Assembly: GCA_963816905.1 (NCBI GenBank)
Contig: CAWFMQ010000014.1
Span: 172,715-236,714, forward strand
DNA length: 64,000 nt
From: an uncultured Chloroflexia bacterium
Lineage (GTDB): Bacteria; Chloroflexota; Limnocylindria; Limnocylindrales; CSP1-4
Reading direction: 5' to 3'
Translations under genes and position numbers: made by a program
Notes under the pieces: model-generated
The model's input: the letters and a program-made list of their open reading frames with translations, nothing else
What the model was told of the DNA's origin: nothing
Databases searched by the model: none
In this document: positions 39,197 to 64,000 of the stretch, in pieces
How positions within the stretch are numbered: the first letter of the stretch is position 1
How the letters are laid out: every line of letters starts with the position of its first letter

Positions 39197-39199
39197 CGC

Positions 39200-39643: not shown

Positions 39644-39731
39644 CGGGTCATGGCTCCTGACTGCGTGTCGTTGGGAGAAATGGGCGGAGGCCGTTGGTGG
39701 CGGCGCTCCGCCCGGGGGTCGTATCCGGTGG

Positions 39732-39995: not shown

Positions 39996-40013
39996 TGCGG
40001 TCTCCTTTGGGGT

Positions 40014-40376
40014 TCAGTAGGTAAGGACGTTGGTGGCCGAGGTGACCTCGGCGACAAAGCGGCCGGCGGCGACGATCTCCGCGCCCTCGATGAGCGCGTC
40101 CGCGCCGATTTCGCGGCTCTTGAGACACGGCGAGCACACGAGCAACTTCCCGCCGAGTTCGCGGAAGTCGCCGAACAGCCTGGCCAGCGGCGGGAACCCG
40201 GCGGCCTCGACCATCTCGATGGTGCCGGCGCGGGCGAGGAGGACACCGTCCGCCTGGAGGCCGACGACGACCTCGACGTCCGAGGCCAGTGCGGCGGCGG
40301 CCATCACGAACGGGATCGTCACGTGCTCCGGGTGGTCCGGGCCGTGCGTGACCATGAATACGAGCTTCTCTGCCAT
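40014..40376 (-). CDS. DsrE/DsrF-like family protein (DsrE3-type)
   Basis: MAEKLVFMVTHGPDHPEHVTIPFVMAAAA...LLVCSPCLKSREI...; ~120 aa. Confidence 0.75.
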   Translation of the reverse strand: MAEKLVFMVTHGPDHPEHVTIPFVMAAAALASDVEVVVGLQADGVLLARAGTIEMVEAAGFPPLARLFGDFRELGGKLLVCSPCLKSREIGADALIEGAEIVAAGRFVAEVTSATNVLTY

Positions 40377-40408
40377 GAATGTGTCCGTCTCCGGGTGCGA
40401 ATGACCGA

Positions 40409-40819
40409 TCAGATGAAGAGGAGCTGGCCGTCGTCGGCACTCAGGAAGAACGTCGCGACACCGCTGACGCCGTCCACGACCGGATCCAGCTGGGACGGTT
40501 CGAGCTTCAGCAGGTCCATCGAAGCCGAGCAGGCCTGGATGTTCACCTCGCCGAGTTCCTTGACCTGCCGGAACGTGTCCAGCCACTGGAGGGCGGCCGG
40601 GACCTTCTGGTCGACGAGCTGCCGGTCGGCGGGTCCCGCCTCCGCGGAAAGGCCACGGGCGTGGCCGGCGCGATCGGTTCGGAACGCGTCGAGTGCCCAG
40701 AACTGGAGCAGGACGTTGACCGGCTTGCCCAGTGCCGCGGCGCCGGCGGCGAGGATCGCGGCGGCCTGGAGCTTGTCGTCGGTGCCGGAGAAGAGAACGA
40801 GCGAGAGCGTGTCTGACAC
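40409..40819 (-). CDS. DsrE/TusD-like family protein
   Basis: 136 aa; ...LSLVLFSGTDDKLQAAAILAAGAAALG...IQACSASMDL... DsrE-fold pattern. Confidence 0.6.
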   Translation of the reverse strand: MSDTLSLVLFSGTDDKLQAAAILAAGAAALGKPVNVLLQFWALDAFRTDRAGHARGLSAEAGPADRQLVDQKVPAALQWLDTFRQVKELGEVNIQACSASMDLLKLEPSQLDPVVDGVSGVATFFLSADDGQLLFI

Positions 40820-40828
40820 GGGGCGGCC

Positions 40829-41188
40829 TCAGCTATGAACGGCGGTGGGTTGTGGTGGGGCGCTGCATGCGGCGGCCAGGTCGCCGAGCCGCGAGATCTG
40901 GCGGAGGAGGACCTGCCGCATCAGCTCGCAGGCATCGACGACGCCGCCGTCGGTCAGCTGGTAGCGGACCTCGCGCCCGGTGCGGACGGCCTCGACGAGC
41001 CCCGCCGCACGAAGCGCCGCCAGGTGGCGCGACGCGGCCGGCTGCGGGATCTCGAGGTGATCGGCGAGCCGGCCGACCTCCCACGGTCCGTCCGCGAGGA
41101 GGTGCACCATCTCGAGCCGGCGCGGATTGGCGAGGGCCATCAGGACGGCGGCCTGCAGGGCGTAGATGTCGTCCACGGGTCGGAACAC
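40829..41188 (-). CDS. ArsR/SmtB family transcriptional regulator (first gene of hdr/tusA operon)
   Basis: ...NPRRLEMVHLLADGPWEVGRLADHLEIPQPAASRHLAALRAAGLVE... Confidence 0.7.
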   Translation of the reverse strand: MFRPVDDIYALQAAVLMALANPRRLEMVHLLADGPWEVGRLADHLEIPQPAASRHLAALRAAGLVEAVRTGREVRYQLTDGGVVDACELMRQVLLRQISRLGDLAAACSAPPQPTAVHS

Positions 41189-44449: not shown

Positions 44450-44713
44450 TCGCAGTTCTCCTGTACGGCCCTTGCGGGCTGGATTGCCCGGCTGGGAAAG
44501 CAGCCGGGTTCTGAGGGCCCGAGCATCGGATCGGCGAATGGACGGGTCATGGAGTCGGCGGACAGGTTGCATGAAGTCGCCCGGGGTCGAGCCGCTCCCC
44601 CACCAGGGGCGCCCGGTACCCCGGAACCGGGCCGCCGTTGTCAGCTACTTGCGCAACCATGCAAGGACATGCTACGCTCCCTGCGCCGCGGGATCGGCCC
44701 GCGGATGGACAGG

Positions 44714-45094
44714 ATGAAGGTGGGGATGAGCCACTCGAACAGTCGGGACCCTGAGCAATACCGACTCCACGCTGAGGTATGCAGAGTCCTGACAGACCCC
44801 AAGCGGTTGATGCTCCTCGAGATCCTGCGCGACGGCGAGCGGTCGGTCGGCGAGCTCGCGAACGAGCTGGGCAGCACACTCGCCAACACGAGCCAGCACC
44901 TGGGCGTCATGCGATCCGCCGGGCTCGTAGAAACGCGCCGGAACGGAACGACCATCGTCTACCGGCTCGCGGAGCCCGAGATCGTCGAGGCCTGCGACGT
45001 CATCCATCGCATCGTCGACCGTCGCCTGGCGACGCGAACCGGAGCCCGCCGGCGGTTCGAGCCGGCCGTGTCAGCCGGCAGCACACCGAGGTGA
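44714..45094 (+). CDS. ArsR family transcriptional regulator
   Basis: ...LTDPKRLMLLEILRDGERSVGELANELGSTLANTSQHLGVMRSAGLVE... Confidence 0.75.
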   Translation: MKVGMSHSNSRDPEQYRLHAEVCRVLTDPKRLMLLEILRDGERSVGELANELGSTLANTSQHLGVMRSAGLVETRRNGTTIVYRLAEPEIVEACDVIHRIVDRRLATRTGARRRFEPAVSAGSTPR

Positions 45095-45096
45095 CC

Positions 45097-45502
45097 ATGT
45101 CCAGCGCCACCCAGTACGCATTCGGAACTCGAGTCCGCGGATCCATCGGGGATCTGCGTCCACGTGTCGAGGCAGCCCTGAAGGTCGAGGGCTTCGGCGT
45201 CCTCACCGAGATCGACGTTCAGGCGACGATGAAGGCGAAGCTCGGCGTCGATCGGGCGCCGTATCTCATCCTCGGCGCCTGCAACCCGTTGCTCGCCCAC
45301 CGGGCGCTCGAAGCCGACCCATCGGTGGGCGTGCTCCTTCCCTGCAACGTCGTCGTCCGGGAGGACGGCCCCGACACGATCGTCGAGGCCATGGATCCGG
45401 TAGCCGCCCTCGGAATCGTCGAATTCACCGAAGATCGAGCCAATTGCGCGCGAGGCCCGCGAGCGCCTCGAGCGCGTCATCAGCAGACTGGAGTCCAGGT
45501 GA
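45097..45502 (+). CDS. DUF302 domain protein (frameshift near 45432)
   Basis: RBS GAGGTG; ...EGFGVLTEIDVQATMKAKLG...YLILGACNP...LLPCNVVV.... The true C-terminus ...IEPIAREARERLERVISRLESR lies in another frame. Confidence 0.6.
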
Positions 45503-45777
45503 TGAGTCTCAATCCCTCGTCGAAGCCCGCGTCCGGGCACCGCGTCATCATGTTTTCGACGCCAACGTGCCCTTGGTGCAACCGGGCCAAGGGCTATCTC
45601 CGGAGCCGCAGCATCCCGTTCCGCGACGTGGACGTGAGCCGTGACCCGGTGGCCGCCCGCGACCTGGTCCGACGGACGGGCCAGATGGGCGTACCCGTCA
45701 TCGAGATCGACGGACGGCCGATCGTCGGCTTCGACCAGCCGCGCATCGACGCGGCACTCGGTTTGCATCTGAACTGA
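45502..45777 (+). CDS. Glutaredoxin-like protein (CPWC active site)
   Basis: ...HRVIMFSTPTCPWCNRAKGYL...VPVIEIDG...; TGATG overlap with the DUF302 stop. Confidence 0.7.
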   Translation: MSLNPSSKPASGHRVIMFSTPTCPWCNRAKGYLRSRSIPFRDVDVSRDPVAARDLVRRTGQMGVPVIEIDGRPIVGFDQPRIDAALGLHLN

Positions 45778-45790
45778 CAGGAGAAGGGTC

Positions 45791-46090
45791 ATGTCCAACC
45801 AGGTCCAACCGCTCGGCAGCCGGGTCCTCGTACGCCTCCTGCCGGAAGAGAGCGTGACCAAATCCGGGCTCTACCTCCCAGACACCGCGAAAAGAGAAGC
45901 CGCAGCGCGGTGAGGTCGTGGCGATCGGCGACGAAACGACAACGATCAAGGTCGGCGTCGGAGACAAAGTCCTGTTTCCCGAATACACGGGAACCGAGGT
46001 CCGGATCGAGGGCGAGGATCACCTGATCATCGATGGCACGGAGCTGCTGGCCACTCTCCGGGACGCCCCGGTTGCCGTTGCCGTCGTCTG
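45791..46090 (+). CDS. groES: Co-chaperonin GroES (frameshift in an A-run at ~45893)
   Basis: MSNQVQPLGSRVLVRLLPEESVTKSGLYLPDTAK then a +1 shift, ...EKPQRGEVVAIGD...EYTGTEV.... The indel sits in an AAAA homopolymer. No groEL follows. Confidence 0.65.
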
Positions 46091-46865
46091 ACCTACCGCG
46101 GCGCGTTTCAATGGCACCCTGCCCGACACCTTTCGGCGGGCCCCTCCGGTTATGCACATCAGGCTGGTAGGCTCGCCGGTGATCGACTCCGACTACTGGA
46201 CCCGCCTTGCGTCATTCGAGATCGAGCACTGGTCGGATCACGAGGAGGACACTCGGACTGCGCTCGGGGAACCGCACTACTTCCACCTGGTCGAACTCGT
46301 CGCTCGGCGTGTGACGCTCGACTGATTTGCCCACCGAGGTGACGCCCTCCTGGCAGGCACGCGCGGACCGAACGACTCGACCTGATGGCGGCCGATCGAA
46401 TGGCCTGTTTGGCGCTCCACCCGAGCCGGATCGACGTCAGCGCAGCCAGCGCGACCGGCCGCGGCGCGATCGGGTTCGGTGACTGCGGCCAGGCGGTTCC
46501 TCGCCAGCGAGCCGCGGCCTCTTGGTTTGCAGGACAGGCCAGATGGCTCTGGCCTCCGCGACGAGATGGGACACGTACACTCCGCTGGAGAGCACCAGGA
46601 AGGCGCTCACGAGGCGGACCCACGTGGCCCATTCGTCGCGGCCCAGGGCGCCGAGCGATCGGCGGCGGCGCCGTCGGCAGCGGCGCCAGTGGTTCCGGCT
46701 TGACGTGCACGCCTCCCGCCGATCAACCGCGTCACCCGGCGATCCCCGGCCCCGCGTGGACGCGGGTGCCACCGGACCTCGGCGCCCAGCGCGCGGTCGT
46801 GGACCCGAGAGCCGCGGACAGCTCGGCTCGCCCAGTGAAAAGGGCGGGCCGGCTATGCTGCCCGC

Positions 46866-48000
46866 GTGCCCTTCGGACTGATCAGCATCACGCCCGACCC
46901 GATCATCTTCGAGATCCCCGGCACCTTCGTCCGGATCGGCTGGTACGGCCTTGGCTACGTCGTGGCCGTCGCCGTGATGATGTGGGTGAGCCAGCGGGAG
47001 GCCGTATGGCGCGGCGTGGACCCGGGCCACATCCTGAACGCGCTGATCATCGTGGCCGCGTGCGCCATCGTCGGGGCTCGGCTGTACCACGTCATCGACC
47101 AGTCGGGCTACTACAGCCAGAACCTCCCCGCGATCGTGCTGCCCCCATACAGCGGCCTTGCCCTCTACGGCGGCATCGCGGGCGCGCATCGTCGGCATCC
47201 TGATCTACACGCGGCGCCACACCATATCGCTCCAGCTGGCGCTCGACATCTGCGTGCCGGGCACCCTGTTCGCCCAGGGCATCGCCCGGTGGGGCAACTT
47301 CTTCAACCAGGAGCTGTACGGCCCGCCGACGAACCTTCCCTGGGGCATCACCATCGGCTGCGACCATCGGGTCGCGCCGTACTACTGCCCCGGCGATCCC
47401 AACCTGGCCGCCGGCGCGGCCGCCTACCCGGTCGACACGACGGGATTCCACCCGCTGTTCTTCTACGAGTCGGCGCTGGACATCCTTGGTGGCTTCGTGG
47501 CCCTCTGGCTGTCCCGCCGCCACATCGACCGCCTCCGCGACGGCGACCTCGCCTCGTTCTGGCTGATCTGGTACGGCTCGGTCAGGTTCATGCTCGAGAC
47601 CTTCCGCTTCGACTACGACTGGAAGCTGCTGGGCATCATGCCCACTGCCATGGCGATCGGCTTGCTCGTGGTGGCGTTCGGGATCATATCGATCATCTGG
47701 CGCCATCGCTCCCCGCGGCCGATCGAGCCGGAGAGCGGTGAGCGTGAGGCTGACGGTAGGCCAGCATTGCACGACATGCCCGAGCCGGACGATCCCAACA
47801 AGGCGCCTCGGCTAACAACGGAGCCAGCCGACAGTGGCGCAAACGTCACGCTCGCCTCGCGCGCAGCCGCGCCGATAACCGCTGCCCCGGTGCTCTGGTG
47901 GGAGGTTGCATGCTTGCTCAAATGTGCGCATGGCTTCATCTGTACGGGCCGTTGGTTGCCTGTTGCCGGGACCGATTGGATCTATGGAGAACTGGCATGA
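46866..48000 (+). CDS. lgt: Prolipoprotein diacylglyceryl transferase Lgt (1-nt indel near 47185)
   Basis: N-part ORF 46866.. (GWYGLGYVVAV...), continuing in ORF 47158..48000 (...GIARWGNFFNQELYG...). Indel in a GCGCGC run. Long C-terminal tail. Confidence 0.8.
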
Positions 48001-48064
48001 GTTGATGCTTCCAACGCGGCGCGCGCCCGTCTGCGTGCCCCGAACCTGAAGGGAGCAACGAGTC

Positions 48065-48160
48065 TTGGCGAGAGAGACCTCAACAGTGCTGCTCAAGGGC
48101 GACGGGCTCCCGTTCGTCGCCCCGACCGGCACCGGACATTCGTTCGCCCTGGACGCACCC
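48065..48160 (+). pseudogene. OsmC-family gene 5' fragment (paralog of 62457..)
   Basis: ...TVLLKGDGLPFVAPTGTGHSFALDAP matches the N-terminus of the OsmC at 62457, then diverges. The ~130 bp upstream are ~78% identical to 62320-62455. Confidence 0.4.
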
Positions 48161-48357
48161 TGTACCAGCTCTACGCCTTTTCGAGATCCACCTCGCAGAG
48201 GAGAGTTGTACGCGCCTCAGGGGTACCGGTACTTTCGGCCCCCATGCGGTGTGCACCGGCACCGTGTCTGCAGGCGGCCGGCCTCGCGGCGCTCGGGCTA
48301 CCATCTCGGCACGGTGAGGCTGATCCGCGGTAGACCTCGACAGCGCGCCGGGCCTGC

Positions 48358-49207
48358 ATGCCGCTGACGGCGGGCGGCGACCTTGCGCTCCTGCTCGTGA
48401 GCGGGTTCGCCGGCCTGCTGGGGGCTCTCGGCGGCGTCGGGGGAGGCCTGCTCGTGGTGCCGGCGCTCACCCTGCTGTTCGGTGTCGACATCCGCCTGGC
48501 AGCGGGCGCCAGCATCGTGGCCGTCATCGCGACCAGTTCGGGCGCTGCCGCGGCCTACATCCGCGACGGCCTGGCGAACCTGCGGATCGGCATGTTCCTC
48601 GAAGTTGGCGACGACCACCGGCGCTGTGGTGGGCGCGCTCGTCGCGGGGTTCGTGGCATCCGAAATGCTGTTCCTGGTCCTCGGGATCATCCTGTTCGCC
48701 TCCGCCGGCATGCAGCTGCTGCGCCTGGCGGAGGATGCGCCCCCCGCGGACGACACCGCGGCCATGCACTCGCGACTGCAGCTTGGCGGGGAGTACTACA
48801 GCGTGCGGCTGCAGCGGTTCGTCCGCTACGTCGCCCGACGCGTCCCGCTCGGGTTCGCGCTGATGTGGGTCGCCGGCCTGGTCTCGGGCCTGATCGGGAT
48901 CGGGTCGGGCGCGCTCAAGGTCGTCGCCATGGACGCAGCCATGGGCCTGCCGATGAAGGTGAGTTCGGCGACCAGCAACTTCATGATCGGCGTGACCGCG
49001 GCCGCCTCGGCCGGGATCTACCTCGCGAGAGGGGACGTGGACGCGCGGATCACCGTCCCGGTGGCGCTCGGCGTGCTGGCCGGCGCGGTCGCGGGCGCCC
49101 GGTTGCTGCCGCGCATCTCCGGCCGCGCGGTGCGCCTGATCTTCATCCCCATCCTGCTGGTGATCGGGGTGGAGACGGTCCTGCGGGGCCTCGGGGTCGG
49201 GATATGA
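48358..49207 (+). CDS. Sulfite exporter TauE/SafE family protein (1-nt indel near 48600)
   Basis: ORF 48358.. N-part + ORF 48482..49207; DUF81 two-half-domain TM pattern. Confidence 0.75.
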
Positions 49208-49563
49208 GCGAGCGGCGCTTCGAGCTGGCCGTCAGCGTGGTGCTCATCGCCGGAGTTGCGGCCAGTGCCATCCTCATGGGGATCGGCTTCCTGGCGTCCT
49301 TCCTCGTGGGCTGGGGCGGCTCGCTGAGCGGAGCGCCTCCGCAACCGTTGGACGCGACGTCGTTCACGGACCTCGCGGACGGGCTGCGCGACCTGCGGCC
49401 GATCGCGATCGCCCAGGCCGGCCTCCTGCTGCTCATCGTCACACCCGTCGCCCGCGTCGCCATCGCGGTCGTGGGCTTCGCCCTCCAGCGCGATCGCGTG
49501 TATGTCGCGATCGCCCTCGCCGTCCTCGCGGTCCTGCTCACCTCGCTGCTCGCGGTCCGCTGA
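49204..49563 (+). CDS. DUF1634 family membrane protein (TauE partner)
   Basis: ATGA overlap with the tauE stop; 119 aa, 3-4 TM helices. Confidence 0.6.
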   Translation: MSERRFELAVSVVLIAGVAASAILMGIGFLASFLVGWGGSLSGAPPQPLDATSFTDLADGLRDLRPIAIAQAGLLLLIVTPVARVAIAVVGFALQRDRVYVAIALAVLAVLLTSLLAVR

Positions 49564-49829
49564 CCCGGAGTCCACAATCAGACCGTGCCCTCCGGGTCCA
49601 TCTTCACAGGATCGGGCACTGCAGGCGGGAGGCCGGCCATGGCCAACGAGACACCGACGGCGCAGGTGGTGAACGGCCAGGCCGGCGACCTGGTGCTCGT
49701 CGCACACCGGGGCGATCGTTCGGTGCTGCTCGCCATGGACCTGCCGCACGAGAAGGCCGACCGGCTCGCCGGCTTCGCGCTGTACCGCACGCCGCCGGGG
49801 AAGCGGACGGGGCCGCTTGCCGCTCCGGC

Positions 49830-50444
49830 CTACGCTCGCCGCCTCGCGACCAGGAGCGCATCGATCGGACCCCGCTCGGGAGGCGTGACGCGCCTGGCGA
49901 TCTCGGCGCGCTCGACCTCGAAATCGGGGTCGGCGTCGAGGAGGTCGCGGCCGATCTCCGCCGCGGTGAACAGCACGTCGGGGTCGCGCGGCCCGCCCTC
50001 GCCCTCGTCGAGGTTCGAGCGATCGTGGCCGACGACGACCAGGCGACCACCCGGCGCGACGGCTCCTGCCGCCCCCGCGTAGATCGGCCGACGGTCCGTG
50101 TCCGTCGGCAGGTGCAGGTAGACGATCGCCACAAGGTCAAAGGCCCGCTCCGGCGGCGCCCAGGAGAACAGGTCGGCTTCCACCCAGCGGACCTGCACTC
50201 CGGCGGCCTCGGCCTGCTTCCGCGCGTTGTCCAGTCCTACCGGTGACCAGTCGACGGCGGTGACGTCCCAGCCCCTCGCGGCGAGCCAGACGGCGTTGGT
50301 CCCGCTCCCGGATGCCAGCTCAAGCGCCCGCCCCGGAGTCAGGGCGGACACGGCGTCCGCCAATGCCGGGTTGGGCCCGGCACCCTCGAAGTCGCCGTCG
50401 CGGTGCCGCTCGTCCCACGCGAGGCGTCGTTCGTCCGGCGACAT
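49830..50444 (-). CDS. Class I SAM-dependent methyltransferase
   Basis: ...LELASGSGTNAVWLAARGWDVTAVDWS... motif I + post-I acidic residue. Confidence 0.7.
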   Translation of the reverse strand: MSPDERRLAWDERHRDGDFEGAGPNPALADAVSALTPGRALELASGSGTNAVWLAARGWDVTAVDWSPVGLDNARKQAEAAGVQVRWVEADLFSWAPPERAFDLVAIVYLHLPTDTDRRPIYAGAAGAVAPGGRLVVVGHDRSNLDEGEGGPRDPDVLFTAAEIGRDLLDADPDFEVERAEIARRVTPPERGPIDALLVARRRA

Positions 50445-50791
50445 CACGCGGAACCCCGCGCCACCGGCCGGCCGCTGCGGATCCAGGCGCTCGTGCCGCC
50501 CCTGACCGACGCCACGTCCTCGAAGCCCCTGGCGGCGAGGAATTCCGTGGCGGAGAGGCTGCGGCTGCCGGACTCGCAGATGACGGCAATGCGCTCGCCG
50601 ACCGGCAGGTTGCCGACCCGGCGCGGCAGCTGGTTCAGCGGCACGTGGAGTGCGGCGGGGACGTGGCCTCGCAGGTACTCCCAGTCCTCGCGGACGTCGA
50701 GGACCGTCACATTCCGATCTCGCAGCAGACCGTCCAATTCGTCGACGCTGATCTCCGGCACGGATCGGCGCATGAAGGAAAACAACGGCAT
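50444..50791 (-). CDS. Rhodanese-domain protein
   Basis: 115 aa; ...TVLDVREDWEY...IAVICESGSRS... catalytic Cys loop. Stop overlaps the methyltransferase start. Confidence 0.75.
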   Translation of the reverse strand: MPLFSFMRRSVPEISVDELDGLLRDRNVTVLDVREDWEYLRGHVPAALHVPLNQLPRRVGNLPVGERIAVICESGSRSLSATEFLAARGFEDVASVRGGTSAWIRSGRPVARGSA

Positions 50792-50814
50792 TGACACCTC
50801 CTTGTGGTGGTGGG

Positions 50815-51645
50815 TCACACGACCTGCAGCGCAAGGTACCCCGCGAGCGTCAGCACGACCAGCGCGAACCCGCGCCCCAGCGTTGCGGCCGGCAGGCGGG
50901 TCGAGAAGGTACCGCCGATCAGCCCTCCGGCGATCGCGCCCAGCGTGAAGAGCACGGTGATCGCAGGGTCGATCGACGCGCCCGTGCCCAGGTGACCCAG
51001 GAGCGCCGTTCCGCTGTTGATCGCGATGATCGGTAGGGATGTGCCGATCGCCTTCGACATCGGCAAGCGGAGGACGACCACGAGCGCCGGGACGATGAGA
51101 AAACCGCCGCCGACGCCGAAGAACCCGGTGAGGAGGCCCACGCCGACCGCCGTCACGATGAACGGGCCGAAGTCGACGATCGGGCACGCCGTCGGCAGCA
51201 TCGAGCGGAGGCGAGCCCGCATTGAGTGGAATGGCAGCGACGTCGTCGGAAGGAACTCGAGCTCGGCCACCTGTCGTTCGGCGGTGCGCTCCTGGAGCCG
51301 CGCCCGGCGCCAGGTCGCGATGGCCGCCACGACCATCAGGACGACGAAGGCCGCGAGCAGCTCGCTCGGCGGCACCTCGCGATTGAGGTACCCGCCGATC
51401 GCGGTGCCTGCGATCCCCACGACGCCGAACAGCAGGGCGCGCTGCCACAGCACGTTTCCGCGGCGGGCATGCGGTAGCGTCGCCCACGCCGCGCTGATCC
51501 CGACGACGATCAGCGACATCGTGGTCGCCTCCCGGGCGGGGACGCCGAGGACGCCGACGAGCAGCGGCACGGTCAGGATGGAGCCGCCACCACCGACCAG
51601 CCCGAGCGACAGGCCGACCAGCCCCCCGAGGACGATGGAGATCAC
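50815..51645 (-). CDS. Sulfite exporter TauE/SafE family protein (intact)
   Basis: 276 aa; duplicated Gly-rich TM half-domains (GGGGSILTVPLL.. / GVGGGFLIVPAL..). Confidence 0.8.
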   Translation of the reverse strand: MISIVLGGLVGLSLGLVGGGGSILTVPLLVGVLGVPAREATTMSLIVVGISAAWATLPHARRGNVLWQRALLFGVVGIAGTAIGGYLNREVPPSELLAAFVVLMVVAAIATWRRARLQERTAERQVAELEFLPTTSLPFHSMRARLRSMLPTACPIVDFGPFIVTAVGVGLLTGFFGVGGGFLIVPALVVVLRLPMSKAIGTSLPIIAINSGTALLGHLGTGASIDPAITVLFTLGAIAGGLIGGTFSTRLPAATLGRGFALVVLTLAGYLALQVV

Positions 51646-51998
51646 GCGGTCGGGCCCGCCGGCCGGGCTTCCGGCCCCGCAACCGGACCGCGCGAGAACC
51701 CGGGCACGTGCTCGCCCGTCATCCGCTCCTGGATGCGGACCGCGATCGCCTCCTCCACCACCGCGTCCGGGTCGCGCAGTCCGCCCATCGTGGCACGCAC
51801 GCCGACGAGGCTCGCGTACAGCGGCGGGCAGGTGGGACAGGATTCCAAATGGCGCTCGACGGTCGAGCGCGTCCGGCCGTCAAGCTCGCCGTCGAGATAC
51901 GCCGAGACGTGACGGCGCGCCTGCCAGCAGCGGATCGGCTGGGCCAGGCTCGCCTGGCGCCGTGCGTCGTCCTTCGCCAGTGCGCTCACGACCATCAT
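51642..51998 (-). CDS. Anti-sigma factor, zf-HC2 type (HxxxCxxC)
   Basis: ...ARRHVSAYLDGELDGRTRSTVERHLESCPTCPP... In the same frame as the sigma-factor C-terminus with no intervening stop. Confidence 0.45.
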   Translation of the reverse strand: MMVVSALAKDDARRQASLAQPIRCWQARRHVSAYLDGELDGRTRSTVERHLESCPTCPPLYASLVGVRATMGGLRDPDAVVEEAIAVRIQERMTGEHVPGFSRGPVAGPEARPAGPTA

Positions 51999-52492
51999 CC
52001 TTCCGCGCCGCAGGCGCTGTTTCGCCGCCGGCAGCCCGATCTCCATCGACGACGGCGATCTCGGCGGCCGTCCAGCCCAGCGCGTCGTGCAGCACGACCG
52101 GCAACCGGTAGATGACCGGGAGCCGCGCCAGCGCATCCTCGAGCTCGTCGCGGAGTTCGGCCCGTTCGAGCACCCGCTCCGGCTGGACCGAGTATTCGTC
52201 GTCCTGCCAGTCGGCCTCGATCGGCGTCGATGTCCAGCTCGTCATGGTGGCGCCGCGACCGGTCGATGATCCGGTTGACAAGGCTGCGCCGCAGCCAGGC
52301 CGGGAGCGCAGCGGGGTCGCGCAGCTGGTCGCGACGCCGCCACGCCCCGATGATCGTCTCCTGGGCGCAGTCCTGCGCGAGATCGGGGTCGGCCAGCAGG
52401 CGAGCGGCCAGCCGGACGAGGCGCGGCAGTTCGCCCGCCAGCCTCGTGCCGAACTCGTCCGCGTCCGCCGGTGGGTTCGTTGCGGCCGTCAC
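51998..52492 (-). pseudogene. ECF (sigma-70 family) sigma factor, two frameshifts
   Basis: Region 2 ...DCAQETIIGAWRRRDQLRD... (ORF 51995..52492); region 4 ...LPVIYRLPVVLHDALGWTAAEIA... (ORF 51880..52281), then ...LPAAKQRLRRGR (ORF 51642..). Confidence 0.65.
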
Positions 52493-52513
52493 TGGCTCTC
52501 TTCCGTCATCGGC

Positions 52514-52726
52514 TCACCTGCCGGCCGGATTCGTGCTGATGCCGAAGACCCGGTACAGCGCGCAGAACCCGACGATGCCGGTCACGAGGGCGATGGCGCC
52601 GACGACCCACGCGAGATAGACGATCGGCGCGGCGACCCAGCCGAATGCGCCGGCGGCAATGAGTACGACGCCGAGAGCGATGCGAGCGATGCGGTCGAGC
52701 GGGCCTTCGTTAGCCTGGAGTTTCAT
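52514..52726 (-). CDS. DUF2892 (YgaP-like) small membrane protein
   Basis: 70 aa: MKLQANEGPLDRIARIALGVVLIAAGAF...IVGFCALYRVFGISTNP. Confidence 0.6.
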   Translation of the reverse strand: MKLQANEGPLDRIARIALGVVLIAAGAFGWVAAPIVYLAWVVGAIALVTGIVGFCALYRVFGISTNPAGR

Positions 52727-52985
52727 TGATGCGTCTCCTGATCGGAGCGGGTCGTTCGCCCGCTTCCATACAGAGGACGAGATCGCCGGGAGAAGCGATA
52801 CATCCATCTTCGCCGACGGCGGGGCAGGGTCGCGACCGTCCCGAACGGCCGCGCGTTCACGCCTGGACTGCACCCGGTGCGGCGGGTGATCGAGCTGCCC
52901 CAGCTCGGTCGCCGGACGGTTTGGGGCGATCGCGCGCTGAACGATGAAGCCGCTCGGCATCCGCGTCAGCGCACCGAAGCGTCCC

Positions 52986-55753: not shown

Positions 55754-56520
55754 ATGCTCGATCTCGCACCCCCGACCGGACCTGGTGCCGCGCGCCGGTC
55801 GACCGTCGACCACGTCGCCACGGCACTCGGCCGGGCGTTCGTGGACGCCATCGTCGCCGGTGACTTCGATCGGCTCGAGGCGCTGTTCGCGCCTGACGTG
55901 CGGTTCCGCGCGATCATCCCCGGCGAAGTACCAGGAGGCCTCGACGGCCGCCGGTGCCCGCGCGATCATCGAGGATTGGTTCGGCGGGACGGACCGCACG
56001 GGAGCTCGCTCGGTTCGACGGTCGACCTGGTCGGCGACCGACTCGCGATCGGATACCGGCTCGAACTGACCGACGACGGCGAGCGGCGCGTCGTGGAGCA
56101 GCACGTCGCGGCGACGGTCGATGGCGCGTCGTTCCGCGACCTCGCCGTCGTCTGCTCCGGCTTTCGGCCGCTCGCCACGGATCGCCGGGGCGCGTCCGCG
56201 ACGCGTGGCACGGACGCCTCGCCGGGCGATGACGACCACGCCGAGGCACCGGCGTTCACGCCGGCCGCCCACCTCGACGCCACCGGCCTCTCCTGCGCGA
56301 CCTTGACCCCGACGATCTCCGCCACGGTCCGTGGGCTCGACTTCGGCGCCGTCCTCGAGATCGTCACCGACGACCCCGAGGCCGAGGAGGGCCTGCGGTC
56401 CTGGACGAGGCTCACCGGCAACGAGCTGCGTCGCGGCCGAGGCCGGACCCGGGTCGGCCCGCCGATTCGGCATTCGTCGATCGCCGCGGGACGCGGCTAC
56501 CACCGGCAGGAAAGGGACCG
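55754..56520 (+). pseudogene. NTF2/SnoaL-like domain fused to a TusA-like domain (two internal frameshifts)
   Basis: RBS AGGAG; ...AFVDAIVAGDFDRLEALFAPDVRF..., shift, ...GARAIIEDWFGG..., shift, ...LAIGYRLELTDDGERRVVEQHVA...; then ...HLDATGLSCATLTPTISATVRGLDFGAVLEIVTDDPEAEEGLRSWTRLTGNEL (TusA fold, degenerate CPxP). Confidence 0.4.
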
Positions 56521-60989: not shown

Positions 60990-60992
60990 CGG

Positions 60993-61714: not shown

Positions 61715-61722
61715 AGCCAGCC

Positions 61723-62183: not shown

Positions 62184-62456
62184 CAGTGCCGACCGACTCG
62201 GGTCCGGCGGCCGTCCCCGAGCAGGGCCATGCACCCTCCTCGGGCGCGGTGGCCGTCCTCAACCGGCACGCCGGCCCCCCCGGTCCAGTCGATTTGCGCC
62301 CTTGCGCAAGTGCGCGAATAGCCTGATCTACATGGGCCGTTGGTCGCACGTTGTTGGGACCGATTGCACTTATGCAGGACTGCGCATGCGTTGATGCTTT
62401 CCGAGTCGGCGCGGCAGGCCGTGTCCGCGGGCCTGAACTGAAGGGAGTCTTGAACG

Positions 62457-62972
62457 GTGGCGACGAAGACCGCATCAGTGGTGCTGGAGGGGGACGGTCT
62501 TCGATTCGCCGTCGAGACCGGGAGCGGACATACATTCGTGCTCGATGATGCCGCCGGCGATTCGGGAGCACGGCCGGCCGAACTCGTCCCGGCCGCCGTC
62601 GCGGCCTGCACGGCCATGGACGTGATCTCGATCCTGCGCAAGAAGCGCCAGGTCGTGACGCGTTACGAGGTCCGGGCCAGCGGCCAGCAAACCGAAGGCG
62701 CCCACCCGGCCGTGTTCACACGAGTCGACGTCGTCCACGTGATCGACGGCCCCGCCCTCGACATCGGAGCCGTCAGGCGCGCGATCGAGCTGTCGGCAAC
62801 GCGCTATTGCAGCGTCGGCGGCACGCTTGCGACCGGCGTCACCGAGATCCACCACGCGTACCTCGTTCACGATGAGGCCGGGGACGAACGGATGGGCGAG
62901 GTCGTCGTCACCGGTCCGCACGCGGATCCCGAGAAGCTCGGTCAGCGGTCCGCAATGGCTGTCGAGCCATAG
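62457..62972 (+). CDS. OsmC/Ohr family protein
   Basis: GTG 62457 with GAAGGGAG RBS; ...ELVPAAVAACTAMDVISIL... OsmC signature; 171 aa. Confidence 0.75.
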   Translation: MATKTASVVLEGDGLRFAVETGSGHTFVLDDAAGDSGARPAELVPAAVAACTAMDVISILRKKRQVVTRYEVRASGQQTEGAHPAVFTRVDVVHVIDGPALDIGAVRRAIELSATRYCSVGGTLATGVTEIHHAYLVHDEAGDERMGEVVVTGPHADPEKLGQRSAMAVEP

Positions 62973-62979
62973 GCCTGCC

Positions 62980-63555
62980 ATGGCTTCGAAGAAATCGCAT
63001 CGGCGTCGATCGACGGAGCCAGCGCGCCCCTCGACAACCGATCGGCCCGAGTCGATCGGCGGTCGCCGGCACGGAACCCCGCGGCGGCGCCCGTGGGTGA
63101 TCGCGGCGGCGATCGCCGTCGTCGTCGTCGGCGCCATCAGCGTCTGGGCCGTGACATCGCTCGCACCGGGCAAGAGCGGCTCCACCACCTCCGGTACGCC
63201 AAACGGCACCAGCCTTCAGCAGACCGGCGGCCCGGTGACGAACATTTCGGCCGACGAACTGGCGGTGATGCTCACCCACAAGGACTTCACGCTGCTGAAC
63301 GTCAAGACGCCCTACATCGGCGAGATCGACGGGACCGACCTCTACATCCCGTACACCGATCTCGCGGCACGCGCCTCCAGTCTTCCTGCCGACAAGGGCG
63401 CCAAGATCGTCGTCTACTGCAGAAGCGGCGCCGAGAGTGCCATCGCCGCGCAGACGCTGGTCGGCCTCGGGTATGCCAACATCGACAATCTGGACGGTGG
63501 CATGAACGCCTGGCAGGCCGGCGGTCGCTCGCTCGTGCAACGCAACCGCGGGTAG
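62980..63555 (+). CDS. Membrane-anchored single-domain rhodanese
   Basis: N-terminal basic region + TM helix (WVIAAAIAVVVVGAISVWAV); rhodanese domain ...KIVVYCRSGAESAIAAQTL... catalytic Cys. Confidence 0.7.
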   Translation: MASKKSHRRRSTEPARPSTTDRPESIGGRRHGTPRRRPWVIAAAIAVVVVGAISVWAVTSLAPGKSGSTTSGTPNGTSLQQTGGPVTNISADELAVMLTHKDFTLLNVKTPYIGEIDGTDLYIPYTDLAARASSLPADKGAKIVVYCRSGAESAIAAQTLVGLGYANIDNLDGGMNAWQAGGRSLVQRNRG

Positions 63556-63589
63556 CCGCGGCGCCCGGCCAATCTCGGAGGTGTCAACC

Positions 63590-64000
63590 GTGGGCCTGCT
63601 GGCCGCACAGCTCCGCAAGGAGCACGCAAAGCTCATGCCGCACGTGGACGAGCTCCGCGTCATCGCCGACTACGCCGCGGACATCCCTGCGGCGTCCCTG
63701 CGCGATCGGCTGCGGCGTGAGCATGCCTTCCTGACACGCGAGTTCGTCCCGCACATGCAGGTCGAGCACGAGGCGCTCTACCCGGCCCTGGGGGACTTCC
63801 CGTCGCACCAGGACAGCGCGTCTCCGATGTCGGACGCTCATCTCGAGATCGCGACCCTGATCGATGCCCTGGGCGGACACACCCACGGTTCGGACGCGAG
63901 CCTGGTACCGGAATGGGTCCTGGAGGCTCGCCGCACGCTGTACCAGCTCTACGCGCTCCTGAAGATCCACCTCGCGGAAGAGGAGCTCAACGCGCCCCGG
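63590..64000 (+). CDS. Hemerythrin-like HHE domain protein (3' partial at window end)
   Basis: GTG 63590 with GGAGG RBS; ...FVPHMQVEHEALYPAL...LYQLYALLKIHLAEEE...; paralog of 41237..41729. Confidence 0.55.
   Translation, partial: MGLLAAQLRKEHAKLMPHVDELRVIADYAADIPAASLRDRLRREHAFLTREFVPHMQVEHEALYPALGDFPSHQDSASPMSDAHLEIATLIDALGGHTHGSDASLVPEWVLEARRTLYQLYALLKIHLAEEELNAPR

What the first reader, a model, noticed from the sequence alone, without database searches (positions are those of the whole stretch)
44714..52726. Dense sulfur-trafficking and redox neighbourhood under ArsR-type and ECF/zf-HC2 control
Over 20 kb this window encodes:
- three TauE/SafE sulfite-exporter paralogs with DUF1634, at 5784, 48358 and 50815;
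- three single-domain rhodaneses at 24278, 50444 and 62980, one membrane-anchored;
- DUF2892, the YgaP-like rhodanese-associated membrane module;
- DUF302 with a CPWC glutaredoxin-like protein;
- a SAM methyltransferase;
- OsmC at 6531 and 62457, plus a 5' fragment at 48065;
- two hemerythrins;
- at least five ArsR-family regulators;
- an ECF sigma factor with a Cys/His zinc anti-sigma factor, redox-sensing type.

This argues for a coordinated sulfite/persulfide-handling regulon surrounding the Hdr-like complex.
Basis: inference. Interest (0 to 1): 0.55.

Follow-up and report, generated by a model that had tools for sequence, protein, structure and literature searches.

The report
Conserved sulfur-stress island, two redox switches
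This stretch of a soil Chloroflexota (Limnocylindria-type) genome carries a conserved cluster of sulfur/thiol-handling genes that appears to be switched by a two-cysteine ArsR repressor with a shared operator and by an unusual sigma factor fused to its own zinc anti-sigma domain; it is a new variant of known systems rather than a new kind of biology.

Summary
The listed genes are real, with four corrections:
- Only one of the three TauE genes has a DUF1634 partner.
- There are four clear ArsR genes, two of them arsenic-type (CVC motif).
- The genes span about 58 kb, not 20 kb.
- Many look broken only because of 1-nt assembly indels.

The region is not a chance cluster. The same families recur around the same core in at least eight related metagenomic contigs.

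Two control elements were found.
1. An operator-like box, CTTGCGCAA-N4-GCAA, overlaps the -35 of the promoter of the 2-Cys ArsR at 44714. It recurs before OsmC-rhodanese at 62294 and, degenerate, before TauE2. In relatives all 0-1-mismatch copies are intergenic.
2. The "ECF sigma plus zf-HC2 anti-sigma" is one soluble 282-aa polypeptide. A DUF2892 membrane-protein gene always precedes it, and a conserved TGTATCC-N16-CGTCC promoter drives it. In this genome that operon also carries TauE, a rhodanese and a TehB/thiol-type methyltransferase. About 10% of listed homologues have that methyltransferase fused on.

The inducing signal (persulfide/sulfite versus general thiol stress) is inferred. Verdict: interpretation partly supported; new variant of known kinds; moderate interest.

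The parts
44648..44664 (+). ArsR-box CTTGCGCAACCATGCAA. It overlaps the -35 (TTGCGC, 44649-44654) of a sigma-70-like promoter whose -10 (TACGCT) lies at 44673-44678 after an 18-nt spacer. It is shared with the divergent hyp-RR-HK operon.
   Evidence: Zero-mismatch hit. The same box lies upstream of every ArsR_44714 orthologue: L001, L002, L005, L008 and L010.
44714..45094 (+). ArsR-family repressor with two invariant cysteines: HAEVC in helix 1 and EAC-D in helix 5.
   Evidence: Pfam HTH_5 E=6e-11. NCBIfam HTH_metalloreg 83.6 bits, above the cut-off of 55. BigR equivalog 61 bits, below the cut-off of 155. Both Cys are invariant in 18 homologues of 60-100% identity. Closest solved structures are Rv0081 and BigR.
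45097..45502 (+). DUF302 protein. An assembly frameshift lies near 45420.
   Evidence: Pfam DUF302 E=8e-24. The C-terminus continues in the next frame. The gene is intact, at 135 aa, in L005.
45502..45777 (+). Glutaredoxin-like protein with a CPWC site (YruB family).
   Evidence: Pfam Glutaredoxin E=2e-16. NCBIfam GlrX_YruB 88.8 bits against a cut-off of 88.55.
45791..46091 (+). GroES (Cpn10) paralogue. A 1-nt insertion in an A-run lies near 45893. It is a conserved member of the ArsR operon.
   Evidence: Cpn10 profile positions 2-33 and 30-92 fall in adjacent frames. Insertion site located. Intact in L005 and L008 in the same operon position.
46152..46325 (+). Remnant of a second TehB-like methyltransferase: N-terminal 18 aa joined to the C-terminal 39 aa.
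   Evidence: Matches both ends of the L002 methyltransferase at 8567-9215. L005 has 467 extra nt at the junction 46204/46205.
47906..47922 (-). Degenerate ArsR-box TTTGAGCAAGCATGCAA. It is probably a relic of the ancestral divergent arsR|tauE intergenic region.
   Evidence: Two-mismatch hit. The spacer GCAT is the same as in the L008 arsR|tauE box.
48065..48172 (+). OsmC 5' remnant of about 36 codons.
   Evidence: tblastn gives 47% identity to OsmC_62457 residues 1-36, E=7e-7. No OsmC-like continuation appears in any frame.
48358..49207 (+). TauE/SafE-family anion exporter (TauE2). A 1-nt insertion lies near 48600.
   Evidence: TauE profile positions 1-71 and 72-236 fall in adjacent frames. 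Site located.
49204..49563 (+). DUF1634 membrane protein. Its start overlaps the end of TauE2.
   Evidence: Pfam DUF1634 E=3e-22. The TauE-DUF1634 pair recurs in L005, L008, L009 and L012.
49830..50447 (-). SAM-dependent methyltransferase of the TehB / halide-thiol methyltransferase type. It is the last gene of the sigma operon.
   Evidence: Methyltransf_25 E=2e-15, with weak TehB and TPMT hits. Nearest solved structures are Slr1183, TehB, halide methyltransferase and thiol methyltransferase 1. It is 63% identical to the methyltransferase domain fused to the sigma/ZAS protein P0023.
50444..50818 (-). Single-domain rhodanese with the active-site loop CESGSR.
   Evidence: Pfam Rhodanese E=4e-17. 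A 61% identical orthologue lies next to TauE in L002.
50815..51645 (-). TauE/SafE-family anion exporter (TauE3). It overlaps the upstream gene by 4 nt.
   Evidence: Pfam TauE 152 bits over profile positions 2-237. Orthologues of 64-69% identity are present in L001 and L002.
51642..52492 (-). Single-chain soluble ECF sigma factor fused to a ZAS anti-sigma domain, with the motif C-x25-H-x3-C-x2-C. Two assembly frameshifts lie near 52055 and 52245.
   Evidence: Sigma70_r2, r4_2 and zf-HC2 fall in three frames. The reconstruction is 97% identical to the intact 282-aa P0001. All of the top 120 homologues are fusions. C188, H214, C218 and C221 are invariant. No TM segment is present.
52514..52726 (-). 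DUF2892 / YgaP-like two-helix membrane protein with a GFC(P/A)LY motif. It is the invariant upstream partner of the sigma fusion.
   Evidence: Pfam YgaP-like_TM E=5e-17. It lies directly upstream of the fusion gene in L005-L012, and also in distant homologues L013 (52% identity) and L015 (39% identity).
52775..52802 (-). ECF-type promoter TGTATCG-N16-CGTCC, about 48 nt upstream of the DUF2892 start codon.
   Evidence: Single occurrence in the window against 0.01 expected. The same motif lies at the same position in L005-L010, L012 and L013. Variants occur in L011 and L015.
62294..62317 (.). Double, near-palindromic ArsR-box TTGCGCCCTTGCGCAAGTGCGCGA upstream of OsmC_62457.
   Evidence: Zero-mismatch and 1-mismatch hits on the two strands. 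The same site is in L005. OsmC lies directly downstream of the ArsR orthologue in L002 and inside the ArsR operon in L008.
62457..64000 (+). Distal part of the same putative regulon: OsmC (62457-62972), membrane-anchored rhodanese (63097-63555), and hemerythrin (63581 onward, running off the window).
   Evidence: Pfam OsmC, Rhodanese and Hemerythrin. In L005 this series continues with a pirin and a Lactamase_B+rhodanese (persulfide-dioxygenase-type) gene.

Best explanation
The focal 8 kb holds two thiol-switch-controlled stress units. They belong to a lineage-wide sulfur/thiol-handling supercluster in an uncultured Limnocylindria-type Chloroflexota bacterium.

**Unit 1 (+ strand)**
- A sigma-70-type promoter is overlapped by the box CTTGCGCAA-N4-GCAA.
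- It drives arsR(2-Cys)-DUF302-grx(CPWC)-groES, followed by a decayed methyltransferase.
- The same box precedes OsmC-rhodanese-hemerythrin 17 kb away. In degenerate form it also precedes TauE2-DUF1634.
- Inferred mechanism: the dimeric ArsR sits on the -35/spacer and represses. Oxidation or persulfidation of its invariant helix-1/helix-5 cysteine pair releases it.

**Unit 2 (- strand)**
- A conserved TGTATCG-N16-CGTCC promoter drives DUF2892-sigma/ZAS-TauE3-rhodanese-methyltransferase as one translationally coupled operon.
- The sigma factor carries its own RsrA/RshA/RslA-like zinc anti-sigma domain in cis.
- Inferred mechanism: the Zn-bound ZAS domain folds back on sigma2/sigma4 and keeps the protein off RNA polymerase. 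Attack on the Zn-thiolates by a thiol-reactive sulfur (or other chalcogen/oxidant) species opens it.
- The freed sigma factor then amplifies its own operon. It thereby makes an anion exporter, a sulfurtransferase and a small-nucleophile methyltransferase that remove the inducer.
- The DUF2892 membrane protein is an obligate partner of unknown role, either signal input or membrane tether.

**Shown versus inferred**
- Shown: gene identities, the fusion, the motifs and their positions, and conservation.
- Inferred: which protein binds which motif, the signal, the substrates, and the cis-inhibition.
For: **Gene identities and source**
- Gene identities.
- Frameshifts are assembly errors.
- Source lineage: uncultured Chloroflexia / Candidatus Limnocylindrales.

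**Synteny**
- L008 has ArsR-DUF302-Grx-Cpn10-Rhd-MTase-OsmC-PEMT divergent from TauE-DUF1634-DUF2892-sigma/ZAS, next to HK-RR and DrsE2-TusA-DrsE2-ArsR.
- L012 and L011 place the module beside the HdrA/MvhD/HdrC-NarI cluster.
- L002 has TauE-Rhd-(Lactamase_B+Rhd) and ArsR-OsmC.

**ArsR-box**
- 5 hits against 0.68 expected in the window.
- All 0-1-mismatch copies in 260 kb of related loci are intergenic.
- Every ArsR_44714 orthologue has one upstream.
- The box overlaps the -35 with a -10 17-18 nt downstream.
- Two Cys are invariant in the ArsR family.

**Sigma/ZAS fusion**
- 2140 hits. The top 120 all carry r2+r4_2+zf-HC2 in 262-296 aa, or about 485 aa with a methyltransferase.
- The Zn-ligand set is invariant, and there is no TM segment.
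- The sigma part is nearest to Mtb SigE/SigH. The ZAS part is nearest to RslA.
- The promoter motif occurs once per locus at a fixed distance, even in a 52% identity homologue.
- DUF2892 is always directly upstream, including in contexts without sulfur genes.
- The methyltransferase is orthologous to the fused domain at 63% identity.

**Precedent**
- Persulfide-sensing ArsR repressors and TauE/PDO regulons (PMC7315123, PMC12423496).
- ZAS redox switches (PMC8999054).
Against: - No experiment or expression data exists. Assignment of the box to ArsR_44714, rather than another factor, rests on position only.
- The ArsR cysteines are not at the BigR/SqrR positions, and the BigR equivalog score is far below cut-off. 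Persulfide sensing is therefore by analogy only.
- The gene set (Trx, TrxR, Grx, OsmC, GroES) fits a general disulfide or peroxide stress response as well as it fits sulfur trafficking.
- The window itself has no persulfide dioxygenase or SQR.
- The AlphaFold model of the fusion is mediocre (pLDDT 68.5, pTM 0.46). It does not establish the folded-back, cis-inhibited state.
- Distant DUF2892-sigma/ZAS modules sit among unrelated genes. The sulfur link of the sigma factor may therefore be lineage-specific.
- The 2-mismatch boxes at 47906 and 41443 could be chance.
Confidence: 0.6

Rival explanations
1. This is a general cytoplasmic thiol-oxidative (disulfide/peroxide/electrophile) stress regulon of the SigR-RsrA / SigH-RshA type. 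Its adjacency to sulfur-trafficking genes is incidental or secondary.
For: - The sigma part is most similar to Mtb SigE/SigH and S. coelicolor SigR.
- The ZAS motif has RsrA spacing.
- Box-controlled genes include thioredoxin, thioredoxin reductase, glutaredoxin, OsmC and GroES. These are classic disulfide-stress effectors.
- Distant DUF2892-sigma/ZAS modules lack sulfur neighbours.
Against: - The units repeatedly include TauE exporters and rhodaneses. They abut DsrE/TusA, the HdrA-MvhD complex and persulfide-dioxygenase-rhodanese fusions in several genomes.
- A methyltransferase of the small-nucleophile (tellurite/halide/thiol) type is fused to the sigma factor in about 10% of the listed homologues. 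This is not a feature of SigR/SigH regulons.
Confidence: 0.25
2. This is a metalloid/chalcogen oxyanion (arsenite, selenite, tellurite) detoxification island. ArsR-type sensors control reductive and methylating enzymes together with anion exporters.
For: - The window has a full ars island: two CVC-type ArsRs, ArsP, ArsD, ArsA and MerR-ArsC.
- The methyltransferases give weak TehB/TPMT hits.
- TelA genes lie near the module in L007 and L010.
- Rhodanese and glutaredoxin can reduce selenite (established biochemistry, my own knowledge).
Against: - ArsR_44714 lacks the CVC/metalloid site and its cysteines are elsewhere.
- TehB equivalog scores are far below cut-off: 35-39 bits against 218-303.
- The ars genes are 30 kb away, have their own regulators, and carry no ArsR-box.
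Confidence: 0.1
3. There is no functional unit. The cluster is a chance accumulation of common small redox genes in a gene-dense high-GC genome, made to look odd by assembly errors.
For: - The paralogues are only 33-43% identical, so they are not recent duplications.
- Unrelated genes (lgt, a C1-like peptidase, a CDF transporter) are interspersed.
- Gene order is reshuffled between relatives.
Against: - The same families recur around the same core in at least eight contigs with different gene orders.
- Two motifs have shuffle expectations of 0.01 and 0.68 and occupy conserved promoter positions.
- A Rosetta-stone fusion joins the sigma factor and the methyltransferase.
Confidence: 0.04

Closest known systems
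Persulfide-sensing ArsR-family repressors and their regulons (BigR of Xylella/Acinetobacter, SqrR of Rhodobacter, sHdrR/SoxR of Hyphomicrobium denitrificans)
   Same: - A small ArsR/SmtB winged-helix repressor with a dithiol pair, one Cys in helix 5.
- It is autoregulated.
- It sits beside rhodanese, TauE-type exporters, persulfide dioxygenase (in relatives), TusA/DsrE and an Hdr-like complex (PMC7315123, PMC12423496).
   Different: - The first Cys lies in helix 1 (HAEVC), not at the BigR C42 / SqrR C41 position. The BigR Cys column is Glu here.
- The BigR equivalog score is 61 bits against a cut-off of 155.
- The operator differs (CTTGCGCAA-N4-GCAA).
- The operon cargo is DUF302-Grx-GroES(-Rhd-MTase-OsmC) rather than blh/PDO-YeeE.
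SigR-RsrA (Streptomyces) / SigH-RshA, SigE-RseA, SigL-RslA (Mycobacterium) redox-sensing ECF sigma / ZAS anti-sigma pairs
   Same: - A two-domain ECF sigma nearest to SigE/SigH.
- A soluble ZAS with H-x3-C-x2-C plus an upstream Cys at RsrA spacing.
- An autoregulatory ECF promoter.
- Thiol-redox effector genes nearby.
   Different: - Sigma and anti-sigma are one polypeptide joined by a linker of about 12 residues.
- A DUF2892 membrane-protein gene is an obligate upstream partner.
- The operon cargo is TauE-rhodanese-methyltransferase.
ECF sigma factors with fused C-terminal anti-sigma-like extensions (ECF48/52/53, e.g. SCO4117) and the uncharacterised soluble-ZAS groups ECF270/ECF271
   Same: - A C-terminal zinc-finger anti-sigma domain is fused to the ECF core.
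- ECF271's model member comes from a Chloroflexi MAG, and some ECF270 members carry a fused soluble extension (PMC8999054).
   Different: - ECF48/52/53 extensions contain 1-2 TM helices and large extracytoplasmic domains, and are actinobacterial. This protein has no TM segment.
- Whether it belongs to ECF270/271 could not be tested.
- No published description of the DUF2892 partner or the methyltransferase fusion was found.
E. coli YgaV-YgaP (ArsR regulator plus rhodanese with a C-terminal DUF2892 membrane domain)
   Same: An ArsR-type regulator, a rhodanese domain and a YgaP-like TM module occur together (YgaV 3cuo is a hit).
   Different: - Rhodanese and the DUF2892 module are separate genes here.
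- DUF2892 is coupled to a sigma factor, not to the ArsR gene.
TehB / halide-thiol methyltransferases (TehB, plant HOL/TMT1, Slr1183)
   Same: Same class I SAM-methyltransferase subgroup by sequence. The association with chalcogen-stress genes is also shared.
   Different: - All equivalog scores are below cut-off.
- The substrate is unknown.
- Uniquely, it occurs as a C-terminal domain of a sigma/anti-sigma fusion in some relatives.

Membership tests
BigR/SqrR-type persulfide-sensing ArsR repressor | ArsR/SmtB winged-helix DNA-binding domain | tested here: met
   Pfam HTH_5 E=6e-11. NCBIfam HTH_metalloreg 83.6 bits, above the cut-off of 55.
BigR/SqrR-type persulfide-sensing ArsR repressor | Sensing cysteine pair at the BigR C42 / C108 (SqrR C41 / C107) positions | tested here: not met
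   In the alignment to BigR 3pqj, the BigR 'lmlvCtl' Cys column is Glu in the query. The query Cys lies 11 residues earlier (aevC). The second Cys lies about 7 residues before the BigR C-terminal Cys region. A different Cys pair is invariant in the family.
BigR/SqrR-type persulfide-sensing ArsR repressor | Score above the curated BigR equivalog threshold | tested here: not met
   NF040642 scores 61.2 bits against a cut-off of 155.
BigR/SqrR-type persulfide-sensing ArsR repressor | Derepression by sulfane sulfur (tetrasulfide/disulfide bridge formation) | not testable with these tools
   Needs protein chemistry.
ZAS (zinc-binding anti-sigma) domain, RsrA/RshA/RslA type | zf-HC2 domain with H-x3-C-x2-C | tested here: met
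   Pfam zf-HC2 42.6 bits, above the cut-off of 22.2. H214, C218 and C221 are invariant in 108 sequences. Nearest solved structure is RslA 3hug_B.
ZAS (zinc-binding anti-sigma) domain, RsrA/RshA/RslA type | Fourth ligand / redox Cys about 26 residues before the His (RsrA C11-H37 spacing; RsrA numbering from my own knowledge) | tested here: met
   The sequence IRCWQARRHVSAYLDGELDGRTRSTVERH places Cys at -26 from His. C188 is invariant. The same spacing holds in the L013 and L015 homologues.
ZAS (zinc-binding anti-sigma) domain, RsrA/RshA/RslA type | Separate polypeptide that binds its sigma in trans | tested here: not met
   No stop or start codon lies between region 4 and the ZAS domain. An intact 282-aa fusion, P0001, and 119 others exist.
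ECF sigma factor (group 4 sigma-70) | Only sigma2 and sigma4 domains; score above the ECF superfamily threshold | tested here: met
   Sigma70_r2 and r4_2. TIGR02937 scores 67.6 bits, above the cut-off of 42.9.
ECF48/52/53 fused membrane anti-sigma extensions | Transmembrane helix/helices after the zinc finger | tested here: not met
   The maximum Kyte-Doolittle 19-residue window is 1.12, and no window reaches 1.6.
ECF270/ECF271 (soluble ZAS-regulated ECFs) | Phylogenetic placement in the ECF Hub group | not testable with these tools
TauE/SafE sulfite/sulfonate exporter family | Full-length match to PF01925 above threshold | tested here: met
   TauE3 scores 152 bits. TauE2 scores 40+97 bits in two frames. 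TauE_5784 scores 105 bits. The cut-off is 32.6.
TauE/SafE sulfite/sulfonate exporter family | Sulfite or sulfoacetate export | not testable with these tools
   No NCBIfam equivalog hit. The substrate needs transport assays.
YgaP (rhodanese fused to a DUF2892 membrane domain) | Rhodanese and YgaP-like TM in one protein | tested here: not met
   DUF2892 is a stand-alone 70-aa protein. The rhodaneses are separate genes.
TehB tellurite-resistance methyltransferase | Score above the TehB equivalog thresholds | tested here: not met
   Scores are 34-39 bits against cut-offs of 218-303. Only the generic class I methyltransferase domain is above threshold.
sHdr (sulfur-oxidising heterodisulfide-reductase-like) system | HdrB-type CCG-domain subunit and lipoate-binding protein alongside HdrA/HdrC | tested here: not met
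   The Pfam scan of 33220-41188 found HdrA-like flavoproteins, MvhD/FlpD, a GltD-like domain and an HdrC+NarI-like membrane protein. It found no CCG domain and no LbpA. The architecture is Qmo-like.

The most novel reading that the evidence does not exclude
DUF2892-sigma/ZAS, sometimes with a fused methyltransferase, is a previously uncharacterised, self-contained ECF signalling module.
- A soluble sigma factor carries its redox-reactive zinc anti-sigma domain in cis.
- It is obligatorily co-translated with a tiny Cys-bearing YgaP-like membrane protein.
- It fires from its own TGTATCC-N16-CGTCC promoter.
- In some lineages it is physically joined to a small-nucleophile methyltransferase. That enzyme either destroys the inducer or serves as the ligand-sensing domain.

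This would be a one-polypeptide sigma/anti-sigma/effector switch for reactive sulfur or other chalcogen species. It is conserved down to 39% identity and well beyond the sulfur island.
Probability: 0.35. Interest if true: 0.65.

Novelty: new variant of a known kind. Interest (0 to 1): 0.45.

Why it matters
- Limnocylindria are abundant, uncultured soil and freshwater Chloroflexota. Their sulfur and redox physiology is essentially unknown.
- The work turns a loose list of gene names into concrete, testable parts:
  - a defined operator and its candidate 2-Cys ArsR repressor with a new cysteine topology;
  - a defined ECF promoter;
  - a single-chain sigma/anti-sigma protein with an invariant membrane partner.
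- If the cis-inhibited sigma/ZAS model holds, it offers a minimal, portable redox-responsive transcription switch. It would also assign a first function to stand-alone DUF2892 proteins.
- The link to TauE, rhodanese, DsrE/TusA and a Qmo-like HdrA complex suggests how these organisms couple sulfur trafficking to stress control.
- The result also warns that apparent pseudogenes in this long-read-style assembly are mostly indel errors.

Tried and rejected
1. A generic palindrome search in 14 upstream regions gave only GC-rich dyads with nothing shared. The real box was found only after comparing orthologous promoters.
2. Pseudogenisation as the explanation for split genes was rejected. Profile coordinates are contiguous across frames, the indels are mostly 1-nt insertions, and L005 breaks different genes. 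Exceptions that appear to be real decay are the OsmC remnant, the internally deleted methyltransferase and the Trx_3 remnant.
3. A hidden stop or start codon between sigma and anti-sigma was rejected.
4. The ECF promoter motif was sought upstream of other neighbourhood operons. None was found.
5. The ArsR_40829-type operator (TATGCGCA-N2-TGCGCATA) was sought in the window. It is absent; the only 3-mismatch hit is inside a gene.
6. The AlphaFold model of the fusion was too uncertain between domains to show cis-inhibition. No fold search was run on it.
7. RNAalifold on six leaders gave weak support (-1.5 kcal/mol), although single-sequence folds agree.
8. The consensus promoter/terminator scan was uninformative in this high-GC DNA.
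9. Looking up the exact source contig through P0270 failed.
10. The ECF classification supplement is not held.
11. Rfam found only a tRNA-Gly.

Full report
**Source and sequence quality**

The window is 68-76% G+C. ORF lists are therefore noisy, so I trained a codon log-odds model and ran a six-frame path.

Many genes change frame once or more inside an otherwise continuous coding signal. Pfam scans of all three frames show that the pieces abut exactly in profile coordinates:
- LGT: profile positions 1-93 and 94-240.
- TauE: 1-71 and 72-236.
- Cpn10: 2-33 and 30-92.
- ArsA: five pieces.
- Aldehyde dehydrogenase: three pieces.

At the junctions the sequence shows mostly single extra bases, for example AAA to AAAA in groES and G to GG in tauE2.

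A contig that is 94-95% identical over 42036-64000 (L005) has GroES and DUF302 intact but TauE3 and the histidine kinase split. The frameshifts are therefore assembly indel errors, not gene decay.

The closest genomes are uncultured Chloroflexia MAGs. Homologues are named Candidatus Limnocylindrales.

**What is in 44714-52726**

On the plus strand:
- arsR, 44714-45094.
- DUF302, 45097-45502.
- A CPWC glutaredoxin of the YruB family, 45502-45777.
- groES, 45791-46091.
- A 57-codon ORF that is the fused N- and C-terminal ends of a TehB-like methyltransferase. L005 has 467 more bases at the junction.
- lgt, 46866-48000.
- A 36-codon OsmC remnant, 48065-48172.
- tauE2, 48358-49207.
- DUF1634, 49204-49563.

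On the minus strand there is a series with 4-nt overlaps:
- DUF2892, 52726-52514.
- Sigma/ZAS, 52492-51642.
- tauE3, 51645-50815.
- Rhodanese, 50818-50444.
- Methyltransferase, 50447-49830.

Only one TauE has DUF1634. Only four proteins match the ArsR HTH model.

ArsR_7006 and ArsR_8729 carry the CVC arsenite motif. They lie in an ars island with ArsP, Trx_3, ArsD, ArsA and MerR-ArsC.

The "Hdr-like complex" (33220-39643) consists of:
- Two HdrA-like flavoproteins, one with a GltD-like part.
- MvhD/FlpD.
- A small wHTH.
- An HdrC+NarI-type membrane protein.

No CCG/HdrB domain was found. The complex is Qmo-like rather than sHdr.

**The sigma factor and anti-sigma are one protein**

Region 2, region 4 and zf-HC2 lie in three frames of one continuous coding run, with no stop or start codon between region 4 and the zinc finger.

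My reconstruction is 97% identical to an intact 282-aa database protein. All of the best 120 of 2140 hits have Sigma70_r2 + r4_2 + zf-HC2 in 262-296 residues. Nine listed proteins carry an additional C-terminal TehB/TPMT-type methyltransferase, giving about 485 aa.

That fused domain is 63% identical to the window's separate methyltransferase. This is a Rosetta-stone link.

Further properties of the fusion:
- The ligand set C188/H214/C218/C221 is invariant, and the Cys-to-His spacing equals that of RsrA.
- There is no hydrophobic segment.
- The sigma part is nearest to Mtb SigE/SigH. The ZAS part is nearest to RslA.
- At 50% clustering there are 50 representatives at E<=1e-30, including about 25 full-length fusions at 33-52% identity.
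- An AlphaFold model has confident sigma2 and sigma4 but an uncertain domain arrangement: pLDDT 68.5 and pTM 0.46.

**An invariant partner and promoter**

A 65-74-aa YgaP-like_TM/DUF2892 gene lies immediately upstream of the fusion gene in every context examined. That covers the window, L005-L012, and the distant L013 (52% identity) and L015 (39% identity), which have no sulfur genes nearby.

About 48 nt upstream of its start codon lies TGTATC(C/G)-N16-CGTCC:
- It occurs once in the window against 0.01 expected.
- It occurs once in each of L005-L010, L012 and L013.
- GGTATCC and TGTACAC variants occur in L011 and L015.

It is found nowhere else in 260 kb. The evidence therefore supports autoregulation, and control of whatever is co-transcribed. 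In this genome that is TauE3, rhodanese and the methyltransferase.

**A shared ArsR-type operator**

Aligning promoters of ArsR_44714 orthologues revealed CTTGCGCAA-N4-GCAA, often within TACTTGCGCAAGTA.

In the window it occurs:
- Perfectly at 44648, overlapping a -35 TTGCGC with a -10 TACGCT 18 nt downstream.
- As a 24-bp near-palindrome at 62294-62317, before OsmC_62457.
- With two mismatches at 47906, before the OsmC remnant/TauE2, and at 41443, inside the hemerythrin gene.

That is five hits against 0.68 expected, and no shuffle reaches five.

In related loci all 0-1-mismatch copies are intergenic. They precede:
- ArsR operons (six of six).
- OsmC.
- TauE.
- Rhodanese-methyltransferase-OsmC-PEMT.
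- Thioredoxin-DUF2892-sigma/ZAS.
- One hyp-hyp-RR-HK operon.

The ArsR family has two invariant cysteines, in helix 1 and helix 5. These are not at the BigR/SqrR positions. The BigR equivalog threshold is not met.

The Hdr-associated ArsR_40829 type has a different palindrome in L008 and L012. That palindrome is absent from the window.

**Conserved neighbourhood**

- L008 shows the compact form. ArsR-DUF302-Grx-Cpn10-Rhd-MTase-OsmC-PEMT is divergent from TauE-DUF1634-DUF2892-sigma/ZAS. It is flanked by HK-RR, by DrsE2-TusA-DrsE2-ArsR, and by the HdrC/NarI gene.
- L011 and L012 put the module next to the full HdrA/MvhD cluster.
- L002 has TauE-Rhd-(Lactamase_B+Rhd) and ArsR-OsmC.
- L001 and L010 have ArsR-TrxR-TauE.
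- L005 shows a pirin and a Lactamase_B+rhodanese gene just past the window's right end.

**Interpretation**

The most economical reading is a sulfur/thiol-stress supercluster with at least two thiol-based switches.

The first switch is a 2-Cys ArsR repressor occluding sigma-70-type promoters of several small operons. This is inferred from motif position and autoregulation.

The second switch is a cis-inhibited ECF sigma whose zinc anti-sigma domain is opened by thiol-reactive species. This is inferred from ZAS precedent (PMC8999054). It would amplify its own operon and with it an exporter, a sulfurtransferase and a small-nucleophile methyltransferase.

Persulfide or sulfite as the signal is favoured by the rhodanese/TauE/PDO/DsrE/TusA company and by precedent (PMC7315123, PMC12423496). 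General disulfide stress remains a serious rival. Metalloid detoxification is a weaker one.

**Comparison with known systems and novelty**

Each part has a known relative:
- BigR/SqrR/sHdrR regulons.
- SigR-RsrA type switches.
- Fused-ZAS ECFs (ECF48/52/53).
- The uncharacterised soluble-ZAS groups ECF270/271, one of which is typified by a Chloroflexi MAG.

What differs:
- The cysteine topology and operator of the ArsR.
- The soluble single-chain sigma/ZAS.
- Its obligate DUF2892 partner.
- The methyltransferase fusion.

I found no paper connecting DUF2892 with sigma factors. I rate this a new variant of known kinds, of moderate interest.

Noticed in passing
window, many sites (e.g. 45420, 45893, 47165, 48600, 52055, 52245, 5984, 10073-11816, 12972-14109, 36490-39196, 57051-59245): Single-base indels, mostly insertions, split otherwise intact genes. 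A 94-95% identical contig breaks different genes. The assembly is therefore error-prone (long-read style), and gene calls here need frameshift-aware handling.
   Followed up: yes
window 46152-46325; L005 15997-16463: A second TehB-like methyltransferase between groES and lgt has lost 467 internal bases in the window. It is complete in L005 and L002. This looks like a real deletion, though an assembly collapse is possible.
   Followed up: partly
window 62057-62179: A C-terminal remnant of a Thioredoxin_3 gene, 83% identical to residues 38-78 of the copy at 8395-8634. It lies in a low-coding stretch (60990-62450) between the CDF transporter and OsmC. This suggests a decayed ArsP/Trx_3 pair.
   Followed up: partly
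window 52727-52790 (-) and the equivalent leaders in L006-L012: The leader between the ECF -10 element and the DUF2892 start folds into a hairpin. Its outer stem pairs UCCU(C/U)(C/U/G)G with the Shine-Dalgarno region. Matching changes occur between loci: UCCUUGG/CCAAGGA, UCCUCCG/CGGAGGA and UCCUCUG/CAGGAGA. The 5' arm overlaps the -10 element, so it may be present only in read-through transcripts. It could therefore silence translation from upstream transcription. Single folds give z-scores of -0.8 to -3.6, and RNAalifold support is weak.
   Followed up: partly
L008 12790-12830, L012 12520-12560 (upstream of ArsR_40829-type genes): A perfect 8-2-8 palindrome, TATGCGCA-CC-TGCGCATA, precedes the DsrE/TusA-associated ArsR in two relatives. 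It is not in the window, where that ArsR follows a hemerythrin gene instead.
   Followed up: partly
window 33220-41188 (-): The 'Hdr-like' cluster comprises ArsR, DrsE_2, DsrE, TusA, MvhD/FlpD, an HdrA-GltD fusion, HdrA, a small wHTH and an HdrC+NarI-type membrane protein. It has no CCG/HdrB domain and no lipoate-binding protein. It resembles QmoABC coupled to TusA/DsrE rather than the sHdr system.
   Followed up: partly
window 4041-4116 and 4669-15071: A tRNA-Gly(TCC) lies just upstream of a block holding DUF2938, TauE-OsmC-ArsR(CVC), ArsP-Trx_3, ArsR(CVC), ArsD, ArsA, an aldehyde dehydrogenase and MerR-ArsC. This may be an arsenic-resistance island inserted at a tRNA gene.
   Followed up: no
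window 21959-23141 (-) and 28837-30030 (-): Two toxin-antitoxin-like pairs are present: HepT-like RNase with a nucleotidyltransferase (MNT-type), and a RES-domain protein with an Rv2175c/Xre-like wHTH partner.
   Followed up: no
window 55754-56456 and 57051-59937 (+): A protein with a SnoaL-like N-terminus and a TusA-like C-terminal domain (25 bits, below the Pfam cut-off) is followed by a large AAA_16/LuxR-type regulator. That regulator is broken into about ten frames by indels.
   Followed up: no
window 15620-16747 (-): A secreted protein is built of three tandem repeats of about 120 aa (…GVRIFARP(F/L)TGG(A/S)LTPSYAASGSPLYPVGTG…) with no Pfam match.
   Followed up: no
L005 1-1864 (beyond the window's right end): In the near-identical contig, the OsmC-rhodanese-hemerythrin series continues with a pirin and a 483-aa Lactamase_B+rhodanese (persulfide-dioxygenase-type) gene. 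The sulfide-oxidising enzyme missing from the window probably lies just outside it.
   Followed up: partly
L007 7001-8461; proteins P0010, P0016-18, P0023, P0043, P0066, P0076, P0089: These are triple fusions of sigma, ZAS and a TehB-like methyltransferase in one polypeptide of about 485 aa. L007 also has a TelA gene about 2 kb upstream of the fusion.
   Followed up: partly
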